Assembly: GCF_038025025.1 (NCBI RefSeq) | Contig: NW_027117350.1 | Span: 682,001 to 746,000, forward strand | Reading direction: 5' to 3' | Origin: Phyllosticta citribraziliensis | Taxonomy: Eukaryota | Length of the DNA: 64,000 nt | Shown here: in pieces, positions 36,951-64,000 of the stretch | How positions within the stretch are numbered: the stretch's first letter is position 1 | Layout: each line of letters opens with the position of its first letter | Notes under the pieces: generated by a model | Told to the model about the DNA's origin: nothing | Databases searched by the model: none | The model's input: the letters and a program-made list of their open reading frames with translations, nothing else | Program-made: the position numbers and the translations under genes

Positions 36951-38545
36951 CTAGGGAATGCCTGGCTCCCCCTTCTCGCCAACTTTTCCTTCAACACCAC
37001 TGTACGTGAATCCCGCTTCGACAACTGGCTCCGTCTGGGCCGTTTCGCTTCGACTTTGCAGTTCCGCTTGTCTCTCCCATTCCATCTCCTGGGTATATTG
37101 CGTTCCAAGGGCCGACAGAAATCCCTCGGCGTTCCCCAACCCGCCGAACCTGTTCATGCTCCTTTCAAACACTTCTTCATTTCGGAAAATCTTATCGTAT
37201 GGATTTGGATGAGCTTGGACATAATATGCGGCACCGAGAATCCCAACGGCAACTGAAGCCAGGAACGTTGAAAAGCCGTGAATCAGTGGCTCTGAAGGTG
37301 CGTACAACTTCTTGCCTGGTGGTGGAATGATCGGAGAGGGGAGAATCCAGCGATTCAATCCAGGAATCATCGCCGTGATGTTATGGGCAATGTTGGAGAT
37401 TGCACCAGTTGCCGTGACTGGCGCAGACGGTGCCCATGGAAGCAGCAAGCCAAGCTCCCTGCGGCCTTGAGTGATGAGTTCGGGGCTACGGCGAAGGTCG
37501 TTCAGCGCCATAAAGTCCGAGGGCTTTGGACTTTCTGCCCCGACTGTCAGCGAGCGCATGCGATTGATGTACTCCTCAAGGTGCAGATAACGGGTCCTGA
37601 TGTGATCTGACAGCCACGGAGATGGCATGTCGGGATACAGCATTAGTGCAAGGTATCCGAACGCCAGACAATCTAGGGTGGTTGGGTGGTCGCTCTTGAC
37701 CAAAAACTCCTTTTCCTCGAGAAGGGCGTCGAGCGGTGCCAAACAGTCATCAGCAACTGCTGCGAGCTTGAAGCGCTCCGCGTACTCTGGCTGACGCAGA
37801 AACCCCCTCAGACCTCTACCCTTGCCAAAGATCAGACTGTTGCGATATGGTGCCGGTCCCTGCTCCTGGATGCCAGCATTTCTTTTGGCAGCCGAGAAGC
37901 TGTCTTCCACCACACCCTCATTGTCCGCGAAAGTATCCAAGTCAAGGTCGTTCAGTCCCAAATGCTGTGTTCGCAACCGCGCAGCCTCCCGACGAGCCCC
38001 AGGGACAGTATAATTCAAATGTGCCGGAAGGAGGGTTGTGAATGCGGGGGAGGTTGCCGAGTAGTAGTTGGCAGATGAGACGTAGAGGTTTAGGTCGACA
38101 AGAGGCAGCGCGTTGGCGCGAAGGAACGAGGTGTATCTAGCAAAGACAGCGTGTTAATAATATCCCCTGGTCAGAGAAAGCACTCCGATACGTACGCGAT
38201 GATGTCGGCGCGTCTCCTCTCGCTGAGCTCTTCATCAAGTTTGCGCTCGATGGCGCTGTGCTTTTGAAGGTATTGCACAATGGCATGAAATCCACTGATC
38301 CAGGTTGGTCCGTTACGTAGCGCAGGGAAGGCTTCTAGTTTCTTGCATTAGCATTGGGCTCTCTGGCAAAGCAAGTCTCCTGAGACGCACGCACTGTTCG
38401 GGCTCAGCGAAACATCGTGAGCGGCAACAACTGCCCAGGCTCCATCGCGCAGAGTCTGCTGCGCATACGCGATGGCGGCGATGCACTCTGGGTCCACTGA
38501 AGGCAGACCAAAGCCCGGACCCCAGACGTGCAGCTCCAGAACCAT
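36951..38545 (-). CDS. SAM37: Mitochondrial outer-membrane SAM complex subunit Sam37/metaxin-like protein (~491 aa)
   Basis: Exons 38545-38395, 38334-38196, 38136-36951. Metaxin N-terminus LELHVWGPGFGLPSVDPECIAAIAY, GST-C-like segment PTTLDCLAFGYLALML and a C-terminal TM segment FLASVAVGILGAAYY. Confidence 0.85.
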
Positions 38546-38802: not shown

Positions 38803-39770
38803 ATGGCGCCTATCCGCCGCTACCTCCGAATCACAAGGCACTCTGCCCTGGAAGTGCGCATATACCTGGACAACCCTGCCTACGGCGATACTTGGTTGCT
38901 TCGCCAAACCGATCCAGCCTTGCCACGCATAATCGATGCCGTAAGGCCTCTGGTACTCCCCAAGTTGTGGGAGGAAAAGGAACGAGCCAAAGGCAGAGGT
39001 AAAGGCAAAAAAGGTGTCAAGGACGTGGTAACTGGAGGTAAGCATAAAACAATACCATGACAAATGACATCATATCCCAGGTGGGCGGCAATGCTTGGAG
39101 GTTCATGACTGGCAACTTTTTTTCCGAATACTGACAAAGTCTTGCAGATGACTTTGAAGTTTCCATATTCCTCACAGATAATTCCACGCCTCATTCATTG
39201 CTCACGAAGAACAAGAAATTCAACGACAAGCCTCGACTCAAGAGCAACTCTGGCAAGTTGACCGGCTGGCTCGTTACTGGCAAGACGGTTGAAAATCCGG
39301 TTGATTTGGATGTCGAGAAACCACAGGAGACAATTACGATCATGGACGAGGAAGAAGGTCAGCCGCTCTCACTCTCCGAGATACCAGAAGCACCAACCAA
39401 AGGAAGCGATGGGCAACCCATAGGCAGCCCTGAGGGGCTCTTTGTAAACGAAAATTCCAGCGAATCCGAGGATGCCTCAGGACCCTCATCTCGTCGAGGA
39501 AAGAGAAAGCAATCTGCATTGGCCGATGATGATGAAATAGAGGGCGCCAAAGAAGACAAGAAAAAGCTTTTGCTCAATACATCATACGACGGATTCAGTA
39601 TCTATGGCCGCATCCTGTGCTTGGTCGTCAAACGTAAAGGCGCTGCAGCAAAGGGATCTGGCACCGCCGGATCGACGGCACAGGCTCCCAGCAGCCAACA
39701 GATGATGGAGAATTGGGTTTCCACGCAAGCCGCCGCCAACATCGGAGCCGAAGAAGATGGCGATGATTGA
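38803..39770 (+). CDS. Conserved-looking fungal hypothetical protein (~285 aa), divergent from SAM37
   Basis: Exons 38803-39037 and 39148-39770; the intron GTAAGC..ACTGAC..CAG joins the two ORFs in frame. Globular-looking blocks RYLRITRHSALEVRIYL, DDFEVSIFL and SYDGFSIYGRILCLVVK. Confidence 0.8.
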
Positions 39771-46922: not shown

Positions 46923-47937
46923 GTCCACTAATAGCGACGTGTTGCAGAGGCACAGCCCAGGGCCTTGGATTGGATTGAAGTGGATCGAACGACGGAGATG
47001 AGCACAGTTGGACGAAAGCGTTGATCGAGTATCGAGTTGGAAGTAGCTGAGGCAGGCTGATGTGCTGTACGTGGAAATGCCTTGTGCTCATCCCCCAGAA
47101 TCGAATCGGGGCACATGGCCTGTGAGGGTGACATGGCGATCTTGGAGTTGCATGTCAGATTGCTGGAGGCGGCGCTACCGGACGGCGGTGGTTGAGGCTA
47201 GTAGCCGTTCACGCGGGGCCAAGGAACAGAGTGCCGTGGGGGCGCAGGAGGAAAGGAAGGCGACCCCTGAAGGACCGTTTAGCGACGAGATGCAATCCAG
47301 GTCGAAAGCATTTTTGGACGTGTAAAGATGATGTTGTAGTTGATGCAATGACGACGGCTCTGCAGGGAGCTTATCTGCTCTGGGCAGTGCAGGGCAGGGC
47401 AGGGCAGGGGCAAGCATGACGTGAGCGACATGTCGCCAAAGTATGCAAGGTAGGTCATGTACAAACAGGCTGTGTGGGAAGAATGCGACGATGAGTCAAG
47501 AGTCGAATCGAACAAGACTTGGAGTTGATGGCAGCTTGTCGGCCGACGCGTCACAGAGAGGTCGTCGACGTGTGGCGGTCACGTCAGATGGTTGAGAGGA
47601 ACATGAACCAACCTGAGCTGAGCTGAGCTTGGCCCGAAGTAGGGGCCGACAGCGAGTAGCGGTCTCAATCTCCGGGCATGCCCAGTGCGCGAAGATCTCG
47701 AACCTGCAGAAGGGCGGGAGAAGGAGAGCACGAGCAGTGTGGAGAGGACAACCTCTCGAAGCTGACTGCCCTCGGCGCCAGCCATGAAGCCACTAGAGTC
47801 GGTCCGACGAGTATCCAAATCATTCTCGCCCGGTCGTGGTGAAACCTGATGTCACTGGCTTTGGAGTCGATTCTACGGTGCATGCATGTGGACGACCCAT
47901 CTGCAGCTGAAACATGCAGTCGAATGTTTGATTGTTT

Positions 47938-48010
47938 GCAGCGCAGCGCAGCGCAGCGCAGCGCAGCACTGGACAGGGACCCCGACAAGGACCCCGACAA
48001 GGACCCCGGC
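47938..48010. repeat. (GCGCA)5 microsatellite followed by a 12-bp tandem repeat GGACCCCGACAA (2 full copies and 1 partial)
   Basis: Directly visible at 47941-47965 and 47977-48010. Confidence 0.85.
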
Positions 48011-48218
48011 CACGGGCACGGTTCAGGCACTGCGGTGCCGGTCAGCCCGACAACTGACCTCCGCTGAAGGAACTAAGTGCCCGTGTCGTGCCTTGCGCAA
48101 GCCCTTGGCCGCCTCACCAGCATGGCCCCAGTAGTCGCCCAGCAGGGGCCCCCAAGAGCTTATTACACCACTGTCCGAAACGGCATGCCTGCCTCACACC
48201 ATTCCAAGCCCAAAAAGC

Positions 48219-48372
48219 CATAAATACCATCTGTCCGCCCTGCCGCTTACGGTTGAAACATCTCCATCATCACCACCATCACTCTTCACTCCACTCGTCC
48301 ACACAAGACTCAATCTTCTGCTCCACTCCACACTCTTCCTCTACCAACAACCACCAACACTCCTCCTCCACA
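48219..48372 (+). promoter_or_regulatory. TATA-like box and C/A-rich, ATG-free leader of the micropeptide ORF
   Basis: CATAAATA at 48219-48226, then about 145 nt of G-poor sequence with no ATG, ending in the start context CCACAATG. Confidence 0.55.
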
Positions 48373-48450
48373 ATGCCGGCCACCGCTCACCTGCCTCCCT
48401 GCCCCGGCCCTCCTCCTACCAGGCCTCTGCCTCCTCTCCCCAAGAACTAA
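48373..48450 (+). CDS. 25-aa proline-rich micropeptide MPATAHLPPCPGPPPTRPLPPLPKN
   Basis: Strong fungal start context, TAA stop, no A-ending sense codon among 25, and an upstream TATA-like element. Contains the class I SH3-ligand motif RPLPPLP. Confidence 0.7.
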   Translation: MPATAHLPPCPGPPPTRPLPPLPKN

Positions 48451-51400
48451 GCCAACGTCTCAATCCGGCTTCGACCAACCTCTCTCCTCCGTCTCGGCTT
48501 CTCTCGCTATCCACATGACCGCCTTTTGACATTCGGATCTCCTTGTCACCCTAATGGACATTACACGACCCCACATCTGGTGTTTCAGCGACCATCATCT
48601 ACCAACGCCGACCCCGGCCAATCATTCTTATCACGTTGGCTCATTCAATGGCCTTCGGTAATATCAAAACGGCCATGACCGCCCTGCGCGGCCTCTGCGG
48701 GACCTCGCATGCCTGATACCCGCAACTGCAAGGGTCCCAGGCGCGAGTTCGCTACTCCACGCCATGCGCCTCGCCGCAAGAGTGCCTCTCGCCGATATCA
48801 TATGGGCCTGCAACCGCAACCCCTCCGTCACATGGCCGGCCTCTCTTGGCGCCTCCCAGACGTTTGCGTCGGGCATGCTCTGCGCTGCCCTGGCCCGTCT
48901 GCTCCAAGACTCTACCCTCAACCTTGTTCTCCATCGAAGTTCGACTTCGCTGCAGGTCCGGCATTGTCGACCTCGGGCGACCCTGGACGCCTTCGCCACA
49001 CCTCTCTCTCTTTTCTAATTAACGAGCGCCATTGGCGACTGTAATGCATCATCGGCGCCGGTTGGGTGGGGGGTTTTCTGTCATGCTGCATCATTCCATC
49101 ATGGCTTGTTCACGCGCTTCATGCGCCTTGGGGGGTTATGTGGTTTTCATTTTCATAGCAACACTCTCGTGAGGAGGATCATACCCGGGCAGATTGTACG
49201 CGCCCACTCCTAGTAACTGAATATCAATCGTTCCAAACAGATACTTCATGTACAGAACTGTGCCTCGTGACGATCATCTTGATCAAGTTTCTGTGGCACC
49301 CCGGCGCCGTCGTTTCACAAAAACTGCTCCTCACGGCCGACGCGAAAAAAGTATCCACTCTCCAGACCAGGGTCTTTTGCTCAATCCGTACCGAGCTGCG
49401 TGCCAATTGTTAATGCGCGCACCTCACGAGCGCGATAGCCGCATTCCAATGGCAAGGCAGGCTGAGGCGGCTCGATGCAGTTATTCAGTCATGCAGCTGC
49501 ATGCCGCGGGGATCTGATCTGGTGGGGGAGAGGGGCCACGGCCGACTGACTCTGAGATGGGCTGCAGGGCTGCAAGAAGATGATGGAATGCTCGTCCACC
49601 GTCCGAGTCAGAGCATTGCCTTGACTTTGTGAAGATGGATCGCCATTGGATTGTCTGTGGGGAAAGGACGTGGGCTGCCTCTCTTCATGTCCAAACCTGC
49701 TGCACCCCTGCCCTAAGGAACCAAGTCGACCGGCCTTCCGTCTGCCTCTCCTCGTGACTGCATCTCCGCGGTTGCCGCACCTTTTTTCCCTTCTTCATCG
49801 TCTCACCGCTCGTCCGGCAACCTCATGGCCCGAGGCACAATGACCTACCTATCCATCAATCACGCGCCCGCGCAAACAATCGTCTCCGAACGGCTCCGGC
49901 TGCCAAGGGTCGGTACAGTACGCACGACGGCAGAACAGTGGGCGCTGCCACGTTGCTGCGAAGACGAGGCCAGTCGTCCGACGCGCGCTGCATCATGCAT
50001 CACATCAGCTCGCCGTGAACCTAACCCACGTGTTGGCCACTGTCGTCAGCACCTCACATGGACGACGGCGGAAATTCCTCGCAACGACCCATTCTGAAAC
50101 GCGGACAGGCCAAACATGATGCAAGCTGATCATCCTCGCCACAGCCGTCTATCATTAGCAGCAAAAGGCAAGGTAACGTAGGAGGCTGGCCGCAATGGAT
50201 GAAACGGCGCGTTCGTCTCGCGAGCGCCAGGCCGCGTCTCATGCTGCTGCTCCCTTGGCTCCTCTCGTCCAACTGCTTCAGGACCCTGGAAACCTCACCC
50301 GCTGCTCATCAAACCCCCGGGCATCCCGCCCAGCTTGCATCATGGCCAATTCTCATTTGCGACTTGCGCTTCGCTGCCCTGCGTGTGCCTGATTGCGCAG
50401 CGCCTCTTGGGGCGCGTTCCTGGCTGCTCTCCACTAGCTCATCCTTGCCGCCGACCCTTGTTTTAGCAACCGTTTTACGCCTCCCACCAAACAGGTGCCG
50501 TTGCTTCAGCGCCCCCAAATCTGACCCGCCGCCCTCTGAGGCTCTGCCGCGCGCTACGTCCAGGCGTTTGCTTCCTCGCCATCAACAAAGACTGCCAAGC
50601 TCGCTGCCTGGACAAGTCCGTGATTGGAGTGTGTTGCGCTGCGGCACAGTCGTGGCCGTCGGCTGCAGGGATAAGGGGATTGCCAGTGGGGAGCGTACGA
50701 TTTGACACCAACACCACGACCAGTCCAACGCCACCTGCCACCGCCAGCCGCAGCGCAGCGCAGCGCAGCGGCCACGTCTCCTGAAGGAGCAATATTCCAG
50801 AATGTTCCTGCCAAGACGCTAGAAGGACGCTCTGACGGAGCAAACACGTCTCTACGAGACCCTTTTGACGCACTGCAAAACGTCTCACGCGTTGGGGCTC
50901 TTTGGAGGCACGTTCGGGTGGCGACCACCGACGCGGGCCGATGAATGTTGACATTTTACCCTTTGAGCAATGTCATCTCGGCATGTCAGGGGCCGAAAAC
51001 TCTGGGGAGGGGGCTAGGGGCGGTGAAGAGGTGGCGTGGTCTGTGTTTGAAAGAGCGAGAAAAGAGCACTTGGACCTCCCGAGCTCGATGAGCTGCAGAA
51101 AAACACCTCCTCCTCAGAGAGATCTGTGGCCAAAGTGGAGAGAGGGAAAGCGGCGCGGTTGAACCCTGGGCGGACGAGGGCACACAAAGTCAACACCACG
51201 GCCGACCGAAGCTCCTGCCTCCTGCCGCGCTTTGAGCAGCTTCAAAGACGTCCATCCGCATTGATTCGCCGGCGCTCTGCTCCAGGAGACGTGGCGATCC
51301 ATGTCGTCACAGGGTCGCTGCCACGGAGCGCGAAGCGCTTTCCTCCTTGTCCGTGTCGCTTTGCTCGACATCAAGACGTGGACCAGAGGATCTTGCACGT

Positions 51401-60626: not shown

Positions 60627-63600
60627 CTACGTCGGCTGCGGTGCCGCAGCTCCCGTAATGTCTCCCGTACTGTCGTCGTTGATCGATTGGACGGGCGCGC
60701 AGGTGCAAAAGAGGTTGACGTCGCCGTAGGCTGTGCGCATCGGCGTTAGTACGTAGTCAAAACGAGGGCAAAAAGCAAGACTCACCATCATCCAGCCTCG
60801 CCACGCTGGGCCAGAACTTCTTTTCCTTGAGATACGGCAGGGGGAACGCCGCCGTCTCGCGCTCATACTCGCGCTCCCACTTGGACGACAGCAGATCGCG
60901 CACCGTGTGCGGCGCCATCTTGAGCACATTGCCGTCGCGGGCCCATTCGCCGTTTTCGACCTTGGCAATCTCGGCGCGGATGCTGACGAGCGCGTCGCAG
61001 AAGCGGTCGAGCTCCTCCTTGCTCTCGCTCTCCGTCGGCTCGATCATGAGCGTGTTGGCGACGGGCCAGCTCATGGTCGGCGCGTGGAAGCCGTAGTCCT
61101 GCAGACGCTTGGCAATGTCGATGGCCTCGACGCCCGCGCTCTCCTTGAAGCCCCGCACGTCGAGGATGAACTCGTGCGCGCACCGTCCCGCCTCGTTGGT
61201 GTAGAGGATAGGGTAGTGCGGCCGCAGCCGCGACAGGATGTAGTTGGCGTTGAGCAGCGTCATCTTGGTTGCGTGCGTCAGACCGCGGGCTCCCATCATC
61301 TTGATGTATGACCAGGAAATGGGCAGGATCGAAGCGGAGCCCCATGGAGCTCCTGATACTGGGTACGTTGCCTGTTCGCCGCCAGTGGCAACGAGCGGGT
61401 GGCCGGGCAAGAAAGGCGCAAGGTGTTTGGCAACGCCAATAGGTCCTACACCTGGTCCACCGCCGCCGTGGGGAATACAGAAAGTCTTGTGCAGGTTGAG
61501 ATGACAGACGTCGGCGCCGATTTCACCAGGAGAGCAGAGGCCGATTTGAGCGTTCATGTTGGCGCCGTCCATGTAGACCTGGCCGCCGTGCTGGTGGACC
61601 AGAGAGCACACCTCCTTAATCTTGGGCTCAAAGACACCAAACGTACTGGGGTAGGTAACCATGATGGCACCGAGTTCGTCGCTATACTTCTCGCACTTGG
61701 CCTTGAGGTCTTCCATGTCGAGGTTGCCCGTGCCCATGTCGCACTTGATGGTAACGACACGCATGCCCGCCATGGCAGCACTGGCCGGGTTGGTGCCGTG
61801 CGCGGAGACGGGAATCAGGCAAATGTCGCGCTTCTTGCCCGGCTGTTGCTCGTGGAACTTGCGAATGACGCGAAGGCCGGTAAACTCACCCTGAGCGCCA
61901 GAGTTTGGCTGCAGAGAGACTGCGGAGAAGCCAGTGATTTCCGCCAGGTCCTTTTCCAGTTCCGTAATCAAAGTCTCGTAGCCCTTGGCTTGGTCCTTGG
62001 GCACAAAGGGATGCAAAGAGGAAAATTCGGGCCACGAAATGGGAGTCATCTCGGTCGTGGAGTTCAGCTTCATGGTGCACGAGCCGAGGGGTATCATGGA
62101 ATGAACAAGAGAAAGGTCCTTGGACTGGAGGTGGTGCATGTAGCGGAGCAGCTCCGTCTCAGAGTGGTGCGTGTTGAAAACAGGGTGGGTGAGGTAGGAT
62201 GACGACCTCTTGAAGACTTCAGGAATCGACTGTTTGGTCACCTTTTCGGCAAGCGCTTCGACATTGGGGATGTCGTTGATTCCAGCAAAAGACCGGAAGA
62301 CGTCCAAAACGTCTTCAACGTCCTCCTTCGAGACGGTCTCGTCAACGGTGATGCCGACGAAGCTGTCGTCAATCTTTCTCAAGTTGATCTGCTTCTTGTC
62401 GAGCGCTTGAGCGAGGATGTTGTCCGAGTTGGCTTCGGTGTCGACGACGACAGTGTCGAACAGGACATCCCCCTTCTTCTGCCGTGTTTCGAAACCAAGC
62501 TGCGCCAGGCCCTCTCGCACAACACCAGCCGTCACCATGACCTTGTCCGCAATGGCCCTCAAGCCTTCGGGGCCGTGGTACACAGCAAACATGGCGCTCA
62601 TGTTGGCAAGCAGGGCCTGCGCCGTGCAAATGTTGCTGGTCGCCTTTTCTCTCCGAATGTGCTGCTCTCTAGTTTGGAGCGCCAACCGCACTGCCGGGTT
62701 GCCCAGCCTGTCCTTGGACAAACCAACCAGACGACCCGGGATCTTGCGCTTGTGCTTGTCGCTGCACGCGAAAAAGGCCGCGTGAGGACCGCCGTAGCCA
62801 AACGGCACACCAAAACGCTGCGCGTTTCCAAACGCAACGTCGGCTCCAAACTCTCCAGGGGGCTTGAGCACCGTCAGAGCAAGCAGGTCCGTTGCGACGC
62901 TGACAGTGCCGCCAAGCTTGTGGACCGTGTCTGACAGGCCCTTGTAGTCCTCGATTACGCCCTCGGTGGTTGGGTACTGGACCAAGACACCAATGAGATC
63001 CTGTCCAATTTCTTGAACGCGCTTGCTGCCGTCTTGGAGCACATCGCCAACCTCGATTGTGATACCGAATCCTTCGGCGCGGGAGCGCAAGACGGCGAGG
63101 GTTTGCGGGTGGCAGTGCTCGTCGACAAAGTATACCTTGTTTGGTCTCTTCTGGCGGCTAATTGGGAGCGCGTTTACGCTTAGGGTCATGGCTTCGGCAG
63201 CCGCCGTGGGCTCGTCCAGCAAGGACGCGTTCGATACGGGCAGCGCCGTGAGGTCGGAGACCATGGTCTGGAAGTTCAAGAGCGACTCAAGCCTGCCCTG
63301 GCTGATTTCCGGTTGGTAGGGCGTGTAGCTCGTGTACCAGGCTGGGTTTTCGAGAATGTTTCTCTTGATGACCTCGGGTACTCGTGTGCCAGCATATCCG
63401 CAACCAATGTAGCTTCTGTAAACGCTGTTTTGGCCCGCAATCTCCCTCAAGCGCGCGAGGAGCCCGCTTTCAGTGTATCCTTCGTCGCTGAGCTTCGTCT
63501 TGTCCCCATTCTTGGCGATAGGTCCTGCAATGGAGAGGTTCCGATCAGAAAGGACGTCCGCAGGCACGACCTGCTTCACAAAGTCGTCGAGCGTGTTTGC

Positions 63601-63903
63601 CGGTGGGTCGAGGGCCTTGAGCATCTGCTCCGTCTCGCTGCTCGAAGGTCCAATGTGGCGACGCGCAAAGGTGTCGAGCGGCGCAAAGGCAGAGCCGCGC
63701 TTGACACTGCTGCCGTTCGAGTCGGCCACGGTGCTCGAGTGATATGTCCGGTTGGCGTAGGTTCTTGTTCCCTGGAGCGACACCAGAGATTGTCCGCCTC
63801 GAGAGCTCCAGACGCGCGTGCTTCGCGGCACCCGGACAGCTGCATCTTGCACTAGCTTGAGCCGAGATGCGCGGAAACCTATTTTGGCGCATTGAGACTG
63901 CAT
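60627..63903 (-). CDS. GCV2: Glycine dehydrogenase (decarboxylating), glycine cleavage P protein, mitochondrial (~1073 aa)
   Basis: Exons 63903-60786 and 60730-60627. Motifs FARRHIGP, YTPYQPEISQGRLE, REKATSNICTAQ, PLGSCTMKLN, the PLP-lysine motif HLNLHKTF and DDAYGDVNLFCTC. Arg/Ser-rich presequence. Confidence 0.97.
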
Positions 63904-64000
63904 TTTGGCAAATGTCGCACCGAGAAAAGACGTGAAGCCCTATCGGGCAGGCAGAAACAGCAGATCGGTTCGAAAGCGCAGAAGAGAGGACGTGTCGGAG

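What the first reader, a model, noticed from the sequence alone, without database searches (positions are those of the whole stretch)
48219..49240. Stand-alone 25-aa micropeptide ORF consisting largely of an SH3-ligand motif, inside a long gene-poor region
Seen: a TATA-like CATAAATA, an ATG-free C/A-rich leader of about 145 nt, the start context CCACAATG, then MPATAHLPPCPGPPPTRPLPPLPKN*. The ORF has 11 Pro, one Cys and no A-ending codons, a bias typical of highly expressed genes in filamentous ascomycetes. About 0.8 kb of UTR-like sequence follows, with a possible 3'-end signal near 49210-49235. The nearest well-supported genes are more than 8 kb away on each side. Established: RxxPxxP is the class I SH3-ligand pattern, and RPLPPLP is the consensus selected for Src-family SH3 domains. 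Inference: a regulated micropeptide acting as a competitive SH3 decoy or adaptor, for example against Sho1, Bem1, Myo5, Abp1 or Sla1-type domains, with the Cys available for lipidation or dimerisation. It is below normal gene-calling size limits.
Basis: partly seen in the sequence, partly recalled or inferred. Interest (0 to 1): 0.85.

Follow-up and report, generated by a model that had tools for sequence, protein, structure and literature searches.

The report
Conserved unannotated proline-rich micropeptide gene
The 25-codon reading frame is a real gene kept by selection on its peptide in at least five diverged, probably fungal, lineages; it encodes little more than a textbook docking motif for SH3 signalling domains and has no match in the protein databases or papers searched.

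Summary
The ORF at 48373-48450 (+), MPATAHLPPCPGPPPTRPLPPLPKN*, is there exactly as described.

A degenerate back-translation of CPGPPPTRPLPPLP found 15 metagenome loci. It found 0 in 596 Gb of prokaryote genomes and 0 in viral contigs.

- **Same gene shape.** All 14 complete loci have one in-frame ATG with a purine at -3, 8-19 variable codons, [L/F]PP, the core, then a stop 1-2 codons later.
- **Only the ORF aligns.** DNA similarity to the window is confined to 48355-48443.
- **Selection on the peptide.** Third codon positions differ at up to 12 of 14 sites, and Arg is AGG, AGA or CGT.
- **No larger gene.** I found no conserved neighbouring or downstream ORF.
- **Unannotated.** No protein in the collections searched matches, and no paper holds the sequence.

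It is therefore a real, stand-alone, unannotated micropeptide gene. The SH3-ligand mechanism (RPLPPLP against Pbs2's Sho1-binding KPLPPLP) is plausible but untested. The core's identity across hits is forced by the search pattern.

The parts
48219..48226 (+). TATA-like CATAAATA, 147 nt upstream of the ATG; a putative core promoter element (inferred)
   Evidence: Present in the sequence. The regex matched a TATA-like element within 500 nt of the ATG only in some relatives, and at other distances (L004/L012 at -299, L007 at -277, L011 at -401 to -496). Conservation is therefore not shown.
48227..48372 (+). C/A-rich, G-poor, ATG-free leader; a putative 5' UTR
   Evidence: There is no ATG in any frame from 48188 to 48372. 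Composition is 44% C and 6.5% G. Relatives also have ATG-free tracts of 98-406 nt before their start codon. This is partly a by-product of G-poverty.
48373..48450 (+). Micro-ORF of 25 codons plus TAA: MPATAHLPPCPGPPPTRPLPPLPKN*
   Evidence: It is the only part of the window with DNA similarity to the 15 metagenome loci (HSPs confined to 48355-48443). The start context is cacaATG, with A at -3.
48391..48444 (+). Conserved block LPPCPGPPPTRPLPPLPK, 18 codons. Fourteen of these were forced by the search pattern. The three before ([L/F]PP) and the one after (K/T) were not forced.
   Evidence: The amino acids are identical or conservative in all lineages, while third codon positions differ at 4-12 of 14 core codons.
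48421..48441 (+). RPLPPLP, a class I SH3-ligand consensus (+xxPxxP with Leu at both hydrophobic positions)
   Evidence: Read directly from the sequence. The class I definition comes from passages in PMC5823434. KPLPPLP is the Sho1-binding motif of Pbs2 (PMC12505296).
48451..49240 (+). Presumed 3' UTR or non-coding tail; its extent is unverified
   Evidence: There is no coding signal. None of the ATG ORFs in it that I looked up is in the protein collection. It has no similarity to the downstream DNA of relatives by blastn, nhmmer, tblastx or short-peptide blastp.

Best explanation
This is a real, independently initiated protein-coding gene of 23-34 codons in the loci seen, and it is missing from the protein collections searched. 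I put about 0.9 on that part.

Its product has a variable N-terminal stub followed by an 18-residue polyproline block, [L/F]PPCPGPPPTRPLPPLP[K/T]. That block is held at the amino-acid level.

The most likely mechanism is action in trans. The free peptide adopts a polyproline-II conformation and occupies the binding groove of a proline-recognition domain. The most probable target is an SH3 domain of class I specificity.
- RPLPPLP would fill the canonical pocket.
- The conserved stretch N-terminal to the Arg (PPCPGPPPT) would make the extended specificity contacts. That is the side on which class I ligands extend.
- The ORF ends 1-2 residues after the last Pro, where a class I ligand needs nothing more.

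By occupying the domain, the peptide would compete with or replace that domain's motif-bearing partners, acting as a dosage-controlled plug or adaptor.

Shown: the ORF, its conservation, peptide-level selection, its stand-alone status, and the motif match. Inferred: transcription, translation, binding and the identity of the partner.
For: 1. **Homologues exist and are specific.** The pattern found 15 metagenome loci. It found 0 in 596 Gb of prokaryote genomes, 0 in viral contigs and 0 of 100 window shuffles.

2. **Features the pattern did not force recur.**
- 14 of 14 complete loci have exactly one in-frame ATG between the preceding in-frame stop and the core (L003 is cut by its contig end).
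- The ATG has a purine at -3.
- The stop follows 1 codon after the core in 14 of 15 loci and 2 codons after in L007 and in the window.
- Pro-Pro precedes the Cys in all of them.

3. **Only the ORF is conserved between lineages.**
- blastn HSPs to the window (13 of 15 loci) lie within 48355-48443.
- nhmmer profiles of the A/B flanks find nothing at or near the locus (best E 0.52, at an unrelated site in the window).
- tblastx with the ORF masked gives 0 cross-lineage hits.

4. **Selection acts on the peptide, not the nucleotides.**
- Group A against group B shows 0 of 256 differences at unforced first and second codon positions.
- The same comparison shows 102 of 224 (0.455) differences at core third positions, 0.35 per site in the 5' UTR and 0.64 in the 3' flank.
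- The window against L011 differs at 12 of 14 core third positions.
- Arg is encoded by AGG, AGA or CGT.

5. **It stands alone.**
- The ORF contains no GT.
- No second conserved small ORF lies downstream (best cross-lineage E 0.023).
- No fused form turned up among proteins of 71-2000 aa.

6. **The motif logic fits a class I ligand.**
- +xxPxxP is class I, and flanking specificity residues lie N-terminal in class I peptides (PMC5823434 passages).
- The Pbs2 canonical motif KPLPPLP plus 8 N-terminal residues forms the extended Sho1 ligand (PMC12505296 passages).
- RPLPPLP co-occurs with SH3 in 25 papers (listing only).
Against: - There is no evidence of transcription or translation.
- No binding test was possible.
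- The identity of the 14 core residues across hits is forced by the search pattern. Which residues are truly invariant, including the Cys and the Arg, is not established, and variants with a changed core would have been missed.
- The pattern of a conserved C-terminal block with a variable N-terminus is also what a nascent-peptide ribosome-arrest element looks like.
- PPLP is also a WW-domain ligand type (recalled, not from a call), so the partner class is uncertain.
- The taxa of the window and of the metagenome contigs were not determined by any search.
- Groups A and B could be paralogues rather than separate lineages.
Confidence: 0.48

Rival explanations
1. The peptide acts in cis as a nascent chain. 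The polyproline stretch (PPC, PGP, PPP, LPP) stalls the ribosome in an eIF5A- or polyamine-dependent way, or at termination. The stall controls the stability, localisation or downstream use of its own RNA. This would resemble conserved arrest peptides such as the fungal arginine attenuator peptide.
For: - The conserved C-terminal block with a variable N-terminal stub fits a peptide read inside the exit tunnel.
- The run of Pro codons is of a kind known to need eIF5A (established knowledge, recalled).
- A 25-codon ORF followed by a long tail would make the RNA a candidate for translation-coupled decay (inference).
- Groups A and B share non-coding downstream blocks at about +255..+530 and +650..+830. 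These contain no ATG-initiated ORF, which suggests the RNA tail matters.
Against: - No conserved main ORF lies downstream in any lineage. tblastx gave 0 cross-lineage hits, short-ORF blastp gave only noise, and the window has no coding signal for 12 kb downstream.
- Non-proline residues (C, G, T, R, L, L) are kept as well as the prolines, which simple polyproline stalling does not require.
- The spacing and identity of the residues between the core and the stop vary (K*, KN*, TA*). That argues against a termination-stall mechanism dependent on the last residues.
Confidence: 0.17
2. The peptide acts in trans but binds a proline-recognition module other than SH3. Candidates are a group II WW domain (PPLP ligands, Prp40/FBP11 type), profilin, or another polyproline binder.
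For: PPLP is present (residues 20-23). The PGPPP run resembles profilin-type ligands. Both motif classes are recalled from established knowledge, not from a call. The evidence for peptide-level selection is the same as for the main explanation.
Against: The full RPLPPLP, with the basic residue three positions before the first Pro of PxxP, matches the class I SH3 definition more completely than any other class. It is one conservative substitution from a proven fungal SH3 ligand.
Confidence: 0.15
3. The ORF is a precursor of a processed, modified or exported peptide, such as a pheromone-like or RiPP-like product.
For: - The size (23-34 aa), the MP(A/S) start and a presumed long 3' tail recall the a-factor-type pheromone precursor genes of filamentous ascomycetes (recalled).
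- A single conserved Cys is present.
- One relative (L013) lies next to a weak Methyltransf_23-like ORF (E 2.4e-4, below the cut-off).
Against: - There is no C-terminal CaaX. The peptides end in PLPPLPK, KN or TA.
- There is no signal peptide and there are no repeated core peptides.
- No biosynthetic genes lie within the held flanks.
- The L013 neighbour includes a perfect 98-nt inverted repeat at the contig end, which may be an assembly artefact.
Confidence: 0.06
4. It is a chance ORF in a C-rich promoter or lncRNA. Alternatively, the conservation reflects a DNA or RNA element rather than a peptide.
For: Inside this window alone, composition (53% C) explains the Pro-richness, the open upstream frame (105 codons) and the lack of ATGs. 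None of the 10 ATG ORFs looked up here, including this one, is in the protein collection.
Against: - The pattern found 15 hits in metagenomes and 0 in 596 Gb of prokaryote DNA.
- Variation is codon-periodic: third positions reach 12 of 14 differences, while unforced first and second positions show 0 of 256.
- The Arg codon switches between AGG and CGT.
- Start and stop are conserved in all complete loci.
Confidence: 0.04

Closest known systems
Pbs2 proline-rich motif (KPLPPLP, residues 93-99) that binds the Sho1 SH3 domain in the yeast HOG pathway
   Same: Six of seven residues are identical, with Arg in place of Lys at the basic position. Both are class I in orientation. Pbs2's functional 'extended motif' adds 8 residues N-terminal to the canonical 7 (PMC12505296 passages). 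Here 9-10 conserved residues precede the Arg.
   Different: In Pbs2 the motif is a short segment of a large MAPKK scaffold. Here the motif is essentially the whole gene product. The N-terminal extension is unrelated in sequence. Binding to Sho1 or to any SH3 domain is untested.
RPLPPLP-type peptides used as Src-family SH3 ligands
   Same: The heptad is identical. RPLPPLP and SH3 co-occur in 25 papers, most of those listed being on Src-family SH3 domains (search listing only).
   Different: Those are selected or engineered peptides for animal tyrosine-kinase SH3 domains. This one is a natural gene in what looks like a fungal genome, a group I recall as lacking Src-family kinases.
sORF-encoded micropeptides and 'microProteins' that regulate larger proteins by binding them
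   Same: Both are tiny, independently translated products kept by purifying selection. They are overlooked by annotation and are proposed to act by occupying a partner's interaction surface.
   Different: Known examples are mostly transmembrane helices or single folded domains, and they are mostly from animals and plants (recalled; a listing of 15 of 348 papers showed no such fungal family). This one would be a bare short linear motif.
Fungal arginine attenuator peptide and other conserved-peptide uORFs
   Same: Both are ORFs of about 24 codons conserved at the peptide level, and each is the first AUG of its transcript.
   Different: Those sit upstream of a conserved main ORF (arg-2/CPA1) and act in cis. 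No conserved downstream ORF exists here.
a-factor-type lipopeptide pheromone precursor genes of filamentous ascomycetes (for example mfa-1; recalled)
   Same: Both have a 21-26 codon ORF starting MP-, and both are stand-alone small genes with a long non-coding tail.
   Different: These peptides have no C-terminal CaaX box. The single Cys is internal and followed by 14-15 residues.

Membership tests
Class I SH3 ligand (+xxPxxP) | A basic residue three positions before the first Pro of a PxxP core | tested here: met
   In R17-P-L-P20-P-L-P23 the Arg lies three positions before P20, and P20..P23 form PxxP. The definition comes from passages in PMC5823434.
Class I SH3 ligand (+xxPxxP) | Physical binding to an SH3 domain that depends on the Arg and the PxxP prolines | not testable with these tools
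The window peptide, at 25 aa, is below the 30-residue chain length that complex prediction asks for, so no job was sent.
Conserved sORF-encoded micropeptide gene | Start and stop codons and the reading frame are kept in diverged relatives | tested here: met
   14 of 14 complete loci plus the window have a single in-frame ATG and a stop 1-2 codons after the core.
Conserved sORF-encoded micropeptide gene | Purifying selection on the amino-acid sequence, with synonymous changes far exceeding non-synonymous ones | tested here: met
   Unforced first and second codon positions show 0 of 256 differences, against 0.455 at core third positions and 0.35-0.64 in the flanks. Between lineages, up to 12 of 14 third positions differ. 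Caveat: first and second positions of the core were forced by the pattern.
Conserved sORF-encoded micropeptide gene | Evidence of transcription and translation | not testable with these tools
Conserved-peptide uORF / ribosome arrest peptide | A conserved main ORF downstream on the same transcript | tested here: not met
   tblastx with the micro-ORF masked gave 0 cross-lineage hits. No conserved downstream small ORF was found. There is no coding signal from 48.5 to 60.5 kb. Only 0.5-1.5 kb of downstream DNA is held for the relatives.
a-factor-type pheromone precursor | A C-terminal CaaX prenylation box | tested here: not met
   The C-termini are ...PPLPK...PPLPKN and ...PPLPTA.
Any annotated protein family | Detectable similarity to a protein in the collections searched, or to a solved structure | tested here: not met
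   - Exact look-up: the sequence is not in the collection.
- Proteins of 22-70 aa: no candidate shares three words.
- Proteins of 71-228 aa: 79 candidates, none with E <= 1.
- Proteins of 71-2000 aa: 97 candidates, none with E <= 10.
- phmmer against 1.84 billion representatives: 0 hits at E <= 0.001 (this search has little power for a 30-aa query).
- PDB: 0 hits at E <= 10.
- Pfam: no hit for the containing frames.

The most novel reading that the evidence does not exclude
This is an unrecognised, widely conserved fungal gene whose whole product is one extended short linear motif. It would be the native ligand of the Sho1 SH3 domain in filamentous ascomycetes.

In those fungi the SH3 domain still recognises the yeast KPLPPLP motif, yet the native Pbs2 orthologue is not engaged by Sho1. 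This is reported for Aspergillus nidulans and Hortaea werneckii, as cited in PMC4904012 (passages read).

The micropeptide would set, by its own expression level, how much of the SH3 scaffold is free for signalling. That would make it a genetically encoded, titratable SH3 plug.
Probability: 0.12. Interest if true: 0.92.

Novelty: new variant of a known kind. Interest (0 to 1): 0.8.

Why it matters
Very few conserved micropeptide genes have been described in fungi, as far as I know. Gene callers discard ORFs of this size, and this family is absent from 5.8 billion protein clusters and from the papers searched.

If the peptide is made, it would be a gene that encodes nothing but a docking motif. 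That is a simple way for a cell to tune a modular signalling domain by competition.

It gives a concrete, cheap experimental handle: a 23-25-residue synthetic peptide, with a point mutant at the Arg or at the PxxP prolines. It also opens a directly testable question about what fungal class I SH3 domains, Sho1 among them, bind in filamentous species.

It also shows that a degenerate-codon scan of public DNA can validate a candidate micro-ORF without any expression data.

Tried and rejected
**Calls that could not be answered**
- The whole genome is not held.
- Extending the metagenome loci through the genome search handles failed because the records are not held.

**Searches that returned nothing**
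- Six look-ups of earlier findings of this scan, by place, sequence and words.
- Protein searches.
- PDB and the ESM Atlas with the 34-aa L013 peptide (after a busy error).
- Rfam over 38,000-61,000.
- Pfam on 9 flank ORFs of the loci gave only one sub-threshold Methyltransf_23 hit.

**Tests on the flanks that were negative**
- Shared promoter words among lineages: one 7-mer in 4 of 5 lineages and no 8-mers or 9-mers.
- Profile nhmmer of the A/B flanks against the window, L007, L011 and L013: nothing.
- A second conserved downstream small ORF: none.

**Readings rejected**
- *Terminal exon or spliced ORF.* The ORF contains no GT. The upstream frame is not conserved, and in-frame stops lie 7-21 codons before the ATG in L011, L013 and L007.
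- *Codon bias as a sign of high expression.* Codon choice follows local GC.
- *Pheromone precursor.* There is no CaaX box.

**Not run**
- Complex prediction was not used, because no partner sequence was available.
Full report
**1. The observation**

The ORF is in the sequence as described. ATG at 48373 to TAA at 48448-48450 on the + strand encodes MPATAHLPPCPGPPPTRPLPPLPKN.
- CATAAATA lies at 48219-48226.
- The start context is ccacaATG.
- No ATG in any frame occurs between 48188 and 48372.
- The leader is 44% C and 6.5% G, and the ORF is 52.6% C.
- The ORF has 11 Pro, 1 Cys and no A-ending sense codon.
- It holds no GT dinucleotide, so no canonical GT splice donor can lie inside it.

Taken alone in this window, much of this is what composition gives. 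A C-rich, G-poor tract reads as proline in several frames, lacks ATG and lacks stops. The frame is open for 105 codons upstream.
- RxxPxxP occurs 71 times in the six-frame translation of the window.
- The fuller R.LPP.P occurs once.
- The degenerate DNA pattern for the 14-residue core matches only here, even with three mismatches allowed. It matches in 0 of 100 dinucleotide-preserving shuffles.

**2. The setting**

The window looks like a compact eukaryotic, probably fungal, genome. This is inferred from gene content, and no call named a taxon.
- Upstream genes include an amidase, an isochorismatase-family protein, an actin-related protein, Paf1, an F-box/WD40 protein, Fab1-type PIP kinase and a luciferase-like monooxygenase.
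- A SAM37/Tom37-like gene lies at 36954-38153 (-), and glycine dehydrogenase GCV2 lies at 60760-63939 (-).

Between those two genes the region is gene-poor.
- Of 80 stop-to-stop frames of at least 110 aa overlapping about 38.0-60.8 kb, only those two pass Pfam cut-offs. Three others have sub-threshold hits.
- I trained a codon-usage log-odds score on 11 recognised genes of the window. Bins inside most of those genes score about 10-37 per 90-codon window, and a few score 6-8.
- A likely small gene at about 38.8-39.8 kb (+) scores 17-22.
- Every bin from 40.0 to 60.0 kb scores only -6.2 to 7.3.
- Rfam finds nothing at gathering thresholds in 38,000-61,000.

**3. The decisive test**

I back-translated CPGPPPTRPLPPLP into a degenerate 42-nt pattern and scanned three collections.
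- The JGI metagenome collection gave 15 loci on contigs of 1 to 140 kb, with GC 0.43-0.58.
- 596 Gb of bacterial and archaeal genomes gave 0.
- IMG/VR gave 0.

The pattern forces the 14 core residues, so their identity across hits is no evidence by itself. What the pattern does not force is what matters.
- All 14 loci not cut by a contig end have exactly one in-frame ATG between the previous in-frame stop and the core.
- That ATG lies 8 to 19 codons upstream of the core and has a purine at -3.
- It is preceded by 98 to 406 nt free of ATG in any frame.
- The stop follows one codon after the core in 14 of 15 loci, and two codons after in L007 and in the window.
- Pro-Pro precedes the Cys everywhere.

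The peptides are:
- MPAASFPPCPGPPPTRPLPPLPK in 11 loci;
- MAPRPWTVLPPCPGPPPTRPLPPLPTA in L007;
- MSTKRIFLRTSSAAAQLPPCPGPPPTRPLPPLPK in L011;
- MSTNRIIQRTSSSAPQLPPCPGPPPTRPLPPLPK in L013.

**4. Lineages**

All-against-all blastn sorts the loci into four groups.
- Group A: L001 and L002 (nearly identical to each other), L003, L005, L006 and L008.
- Group B: L004 and L012 (nearly identical), L009 and L014 (nearly identical), L010 and L015.
- Group C: L011 and L013.
- L007 stands alone.

Within A and within B the whole locus aligns at about 75-89% identity, setting aside the near-identical pairs. Between A and B, the ORF, the 5' UTR, a promoter block and two downstream blocks align.

Between every other pair of lineages, and between each of them and the window, only the ORF aligns.
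- The window's HSPs (13 of 15 loci; none for L011 or L013) all lie within 48355-48443.
- nhmmer profiles of the A/B upstream and downstream flanks find nothing in the window, L007, L011 or L013. The best E-value is 0.52, and it is at an unrelated site.
- tblastx of 20.7 kb of the window against the loci with the micro-ORF masked gives 0 cross-lineage hits at E <= 1e-3.

Counting the near-identical pairs once, there are 12 distinct loci plus the window.

**5. Selection is on the peptide**

Between A and B:
- unforced first and second codon positions (codons 2-8 and the Lys) show 0 of 256 differences;
- third positions of the core differ at 102 of 224 (0.455 per site);
- that rate is as fast as the 5' UTR (0.35) and approaches the 3' flank (0.64).

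Between lineages:
- core third positions differ at 4-6 of 14 for the window against A and B;
- 6 of 14 for the window against L007;
- 11-12 of 14 for the window against group C, which is effectively saturated;
- the Arg codon is AGG, AGA or CGT.

The alignment shows a strict three-base periodicity of conservation that starts and stops with the ORF. A DNA or RNA element would not give this pattern.

The low-GC lineage C uses CCA, ACA, AGA and CTA. The window's lack of A-ending codons therefore reflects local composition, not expression-linked bias.

**6. It stands alone and is unannotated**

No second conserved small ORF lies downstream in any lineage. The best cross-lineage blastp-short E-value is 0.023, among about 70 short ORFs compared all against all. 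The frames through the A/B downstream blocks lack an ATG and shift between species.

In the protein collections:
- the exact 25-mer and nine neighbouring ATG ORFs are absent;
- no protein of 22-70 aa shares even three 5-residue words with a 40-codon query holding the peptide;
- among proteins of 71-228 aa, 79 candidates share words and none scores E <= 1;
- among proteins of 71-2000 aa, 97 candidates share words and none scores E <= 10;
- phmmer over 1.84 billion representatives gives nothing at E <= 0.001, though such a short query has little power there;
- PDB and the ESM Atlas give nothing.

Full-text searches for two substrings of the peptide find 0 papers. A search on small ORFs and micropeptides in filamentous fungi listed no such family among the 15 of 348 papers shown (listing only).

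**7. Mechanism**

The kept block is 18 residues, [L/F]PPCPGPPPTRPLPPLP[K/T].
- RPLPPLP satisfies the class I SH3 definition +xxPxxP (passages of PMC5823434).
- In class I ligands the specificity-giving flank lies N-terminal of the PxxP core (same passages). That is where this peptide carries its extra conserved residues, while the ORF ends directly after the core.
- The closest proven fungal ligand is KPLPPLP, residues 93-99 of the yeast MAPKK Pbs2, which binds the Sho1 SH3 domain. Deep mutational scanning extends the functional motif to residues 85-99, eight residues N-terminal of the core (passages of PMC12505296).
- RPLPPLP and SH3 co-occur in 25 papers, most of those listed being on Src-family SH3 domains (listing only).

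I therefore favour a free cytosolic peptide that occupies a class I SH3 groove and competes with, or substitutes for, motif-bearing partners. My confidence in that mechanism is about 0.5. My confidence that the gene is real and selected as a peptide is about 0.9.

Nothing here shows transcription, translation or binding.

**8. Rivals**

- *A cis-acting arrest peptide.* It would show the same pattern of conserved C-terminus and variable N-terminus, and the proline run should need eIF5A. But there is no conserved downstream ORF, the non-proline residues are kept too, and the residues between the core and the stop vary.
- *A different proline-binding module.* PPLP is also a WW ligand type (recalled, not from a call).
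- *A pheromone or RiPP precursor.* This is unlikely, because there is no CaaX box, no signal peptide and there are no cluster genes.
- *Chance or a nucleotide-level element.* In my view searches exclude this.

**9. A bolder reading**

Passages of PMC4904012 report, citing earlier work, two relevant findings.
- Aspergillus nidulans Sho1 works in yeast, whereas its Pbs2 orthologue is not activated through yeast Sho1.
- Hortaea werneckii Sho1 binds yeast Pbs2, while the reverse pairing was not confirmed.

If filamentous ascomycete Sho1 SH3 domains keep a taste for KPLPPLP-type motifs that their own Pbs2 no longer offers, this micropeptide is a candidate native ligand. This rests on motif likeness only, and I give it about 0.12.

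**10. Limits**

- Only 1.5 kb of flank is held per locus.
- The taxa of the window and of the contigs are undetermined.
- A and B may be paralogues.
- Expression data could not be obtained.

Noticed in passing
window 40200-60700: About 20 kb has no Pfam-supported frame, no codon-usage signal and no Rfam family. It lies between a small gene at about 38.8-39.8 kb and GCV2. That is unusually long for an otherwise compact genome. The micro-ORF relatives in groups A and B also sit in at least 3 kb without recognisable genes.
   Followed up: partly
window 38803-39770 (+): A probable small two-exon gene (MAPIRRYLRITRHSALEV... then MDEEEGQPLSLSEIPE...). It has a clear codon-usage signal (scores 17-22) but no Pfam hit.
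   Followed up: no
window 47380-48010: GC skew switches sign near 47.6 kb, from G-rich on the + strand upstream to C-rich downstream. Just upstream of the micro-ORF promoter region lie short tandem arrays: (GGGCA)5.6 at 47382-47409, (GCAGC)6 at 47938-47967 and (GACAAGGACCCC)3.1 at 47972-48008. The skew switch could mark divergent transcription.
   Followed up: no
L002, L005, L008, L009, L010, L015: about +255..+530 and +650..+830 from the core: Groups A and B share two non-coding downstream blocks at 55-76% identity. The frames through them lack an ATG and shift between species. They may be conserved 3' UTR elements of the micro-ORF transcript. They are not detectable in the window, L007, L011 or L013.
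   Followed up: partly
Groups A and B, first 8 codons of the ORF: The first 24 nt (ATGCCTGCCGCCAGCTTCCCTCCT) are almost invariant even at synonymous sites, with 4 of 128 A-B differences. Core third positions differ at 0.455 per site. This hints at an added nucleotide-level constraint near the start codon.
   Followed up: no
L013:1-98 and 2518-2615: A perfect 98-nt inverted repeat involves the contig's first bases. It duplicates the start of a weak methyltransferase-like ORF on both sides of the micro-ORF. It may be an assembly artefact.
   Followed up: partly
window 60760-60800 (-): The long GCV2 frame ends in ...RLDDGESCFLPSF. This looks like read-through into an intron before a short last exon (inference from recalled GCV2 C-termini).
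   Followed up: no
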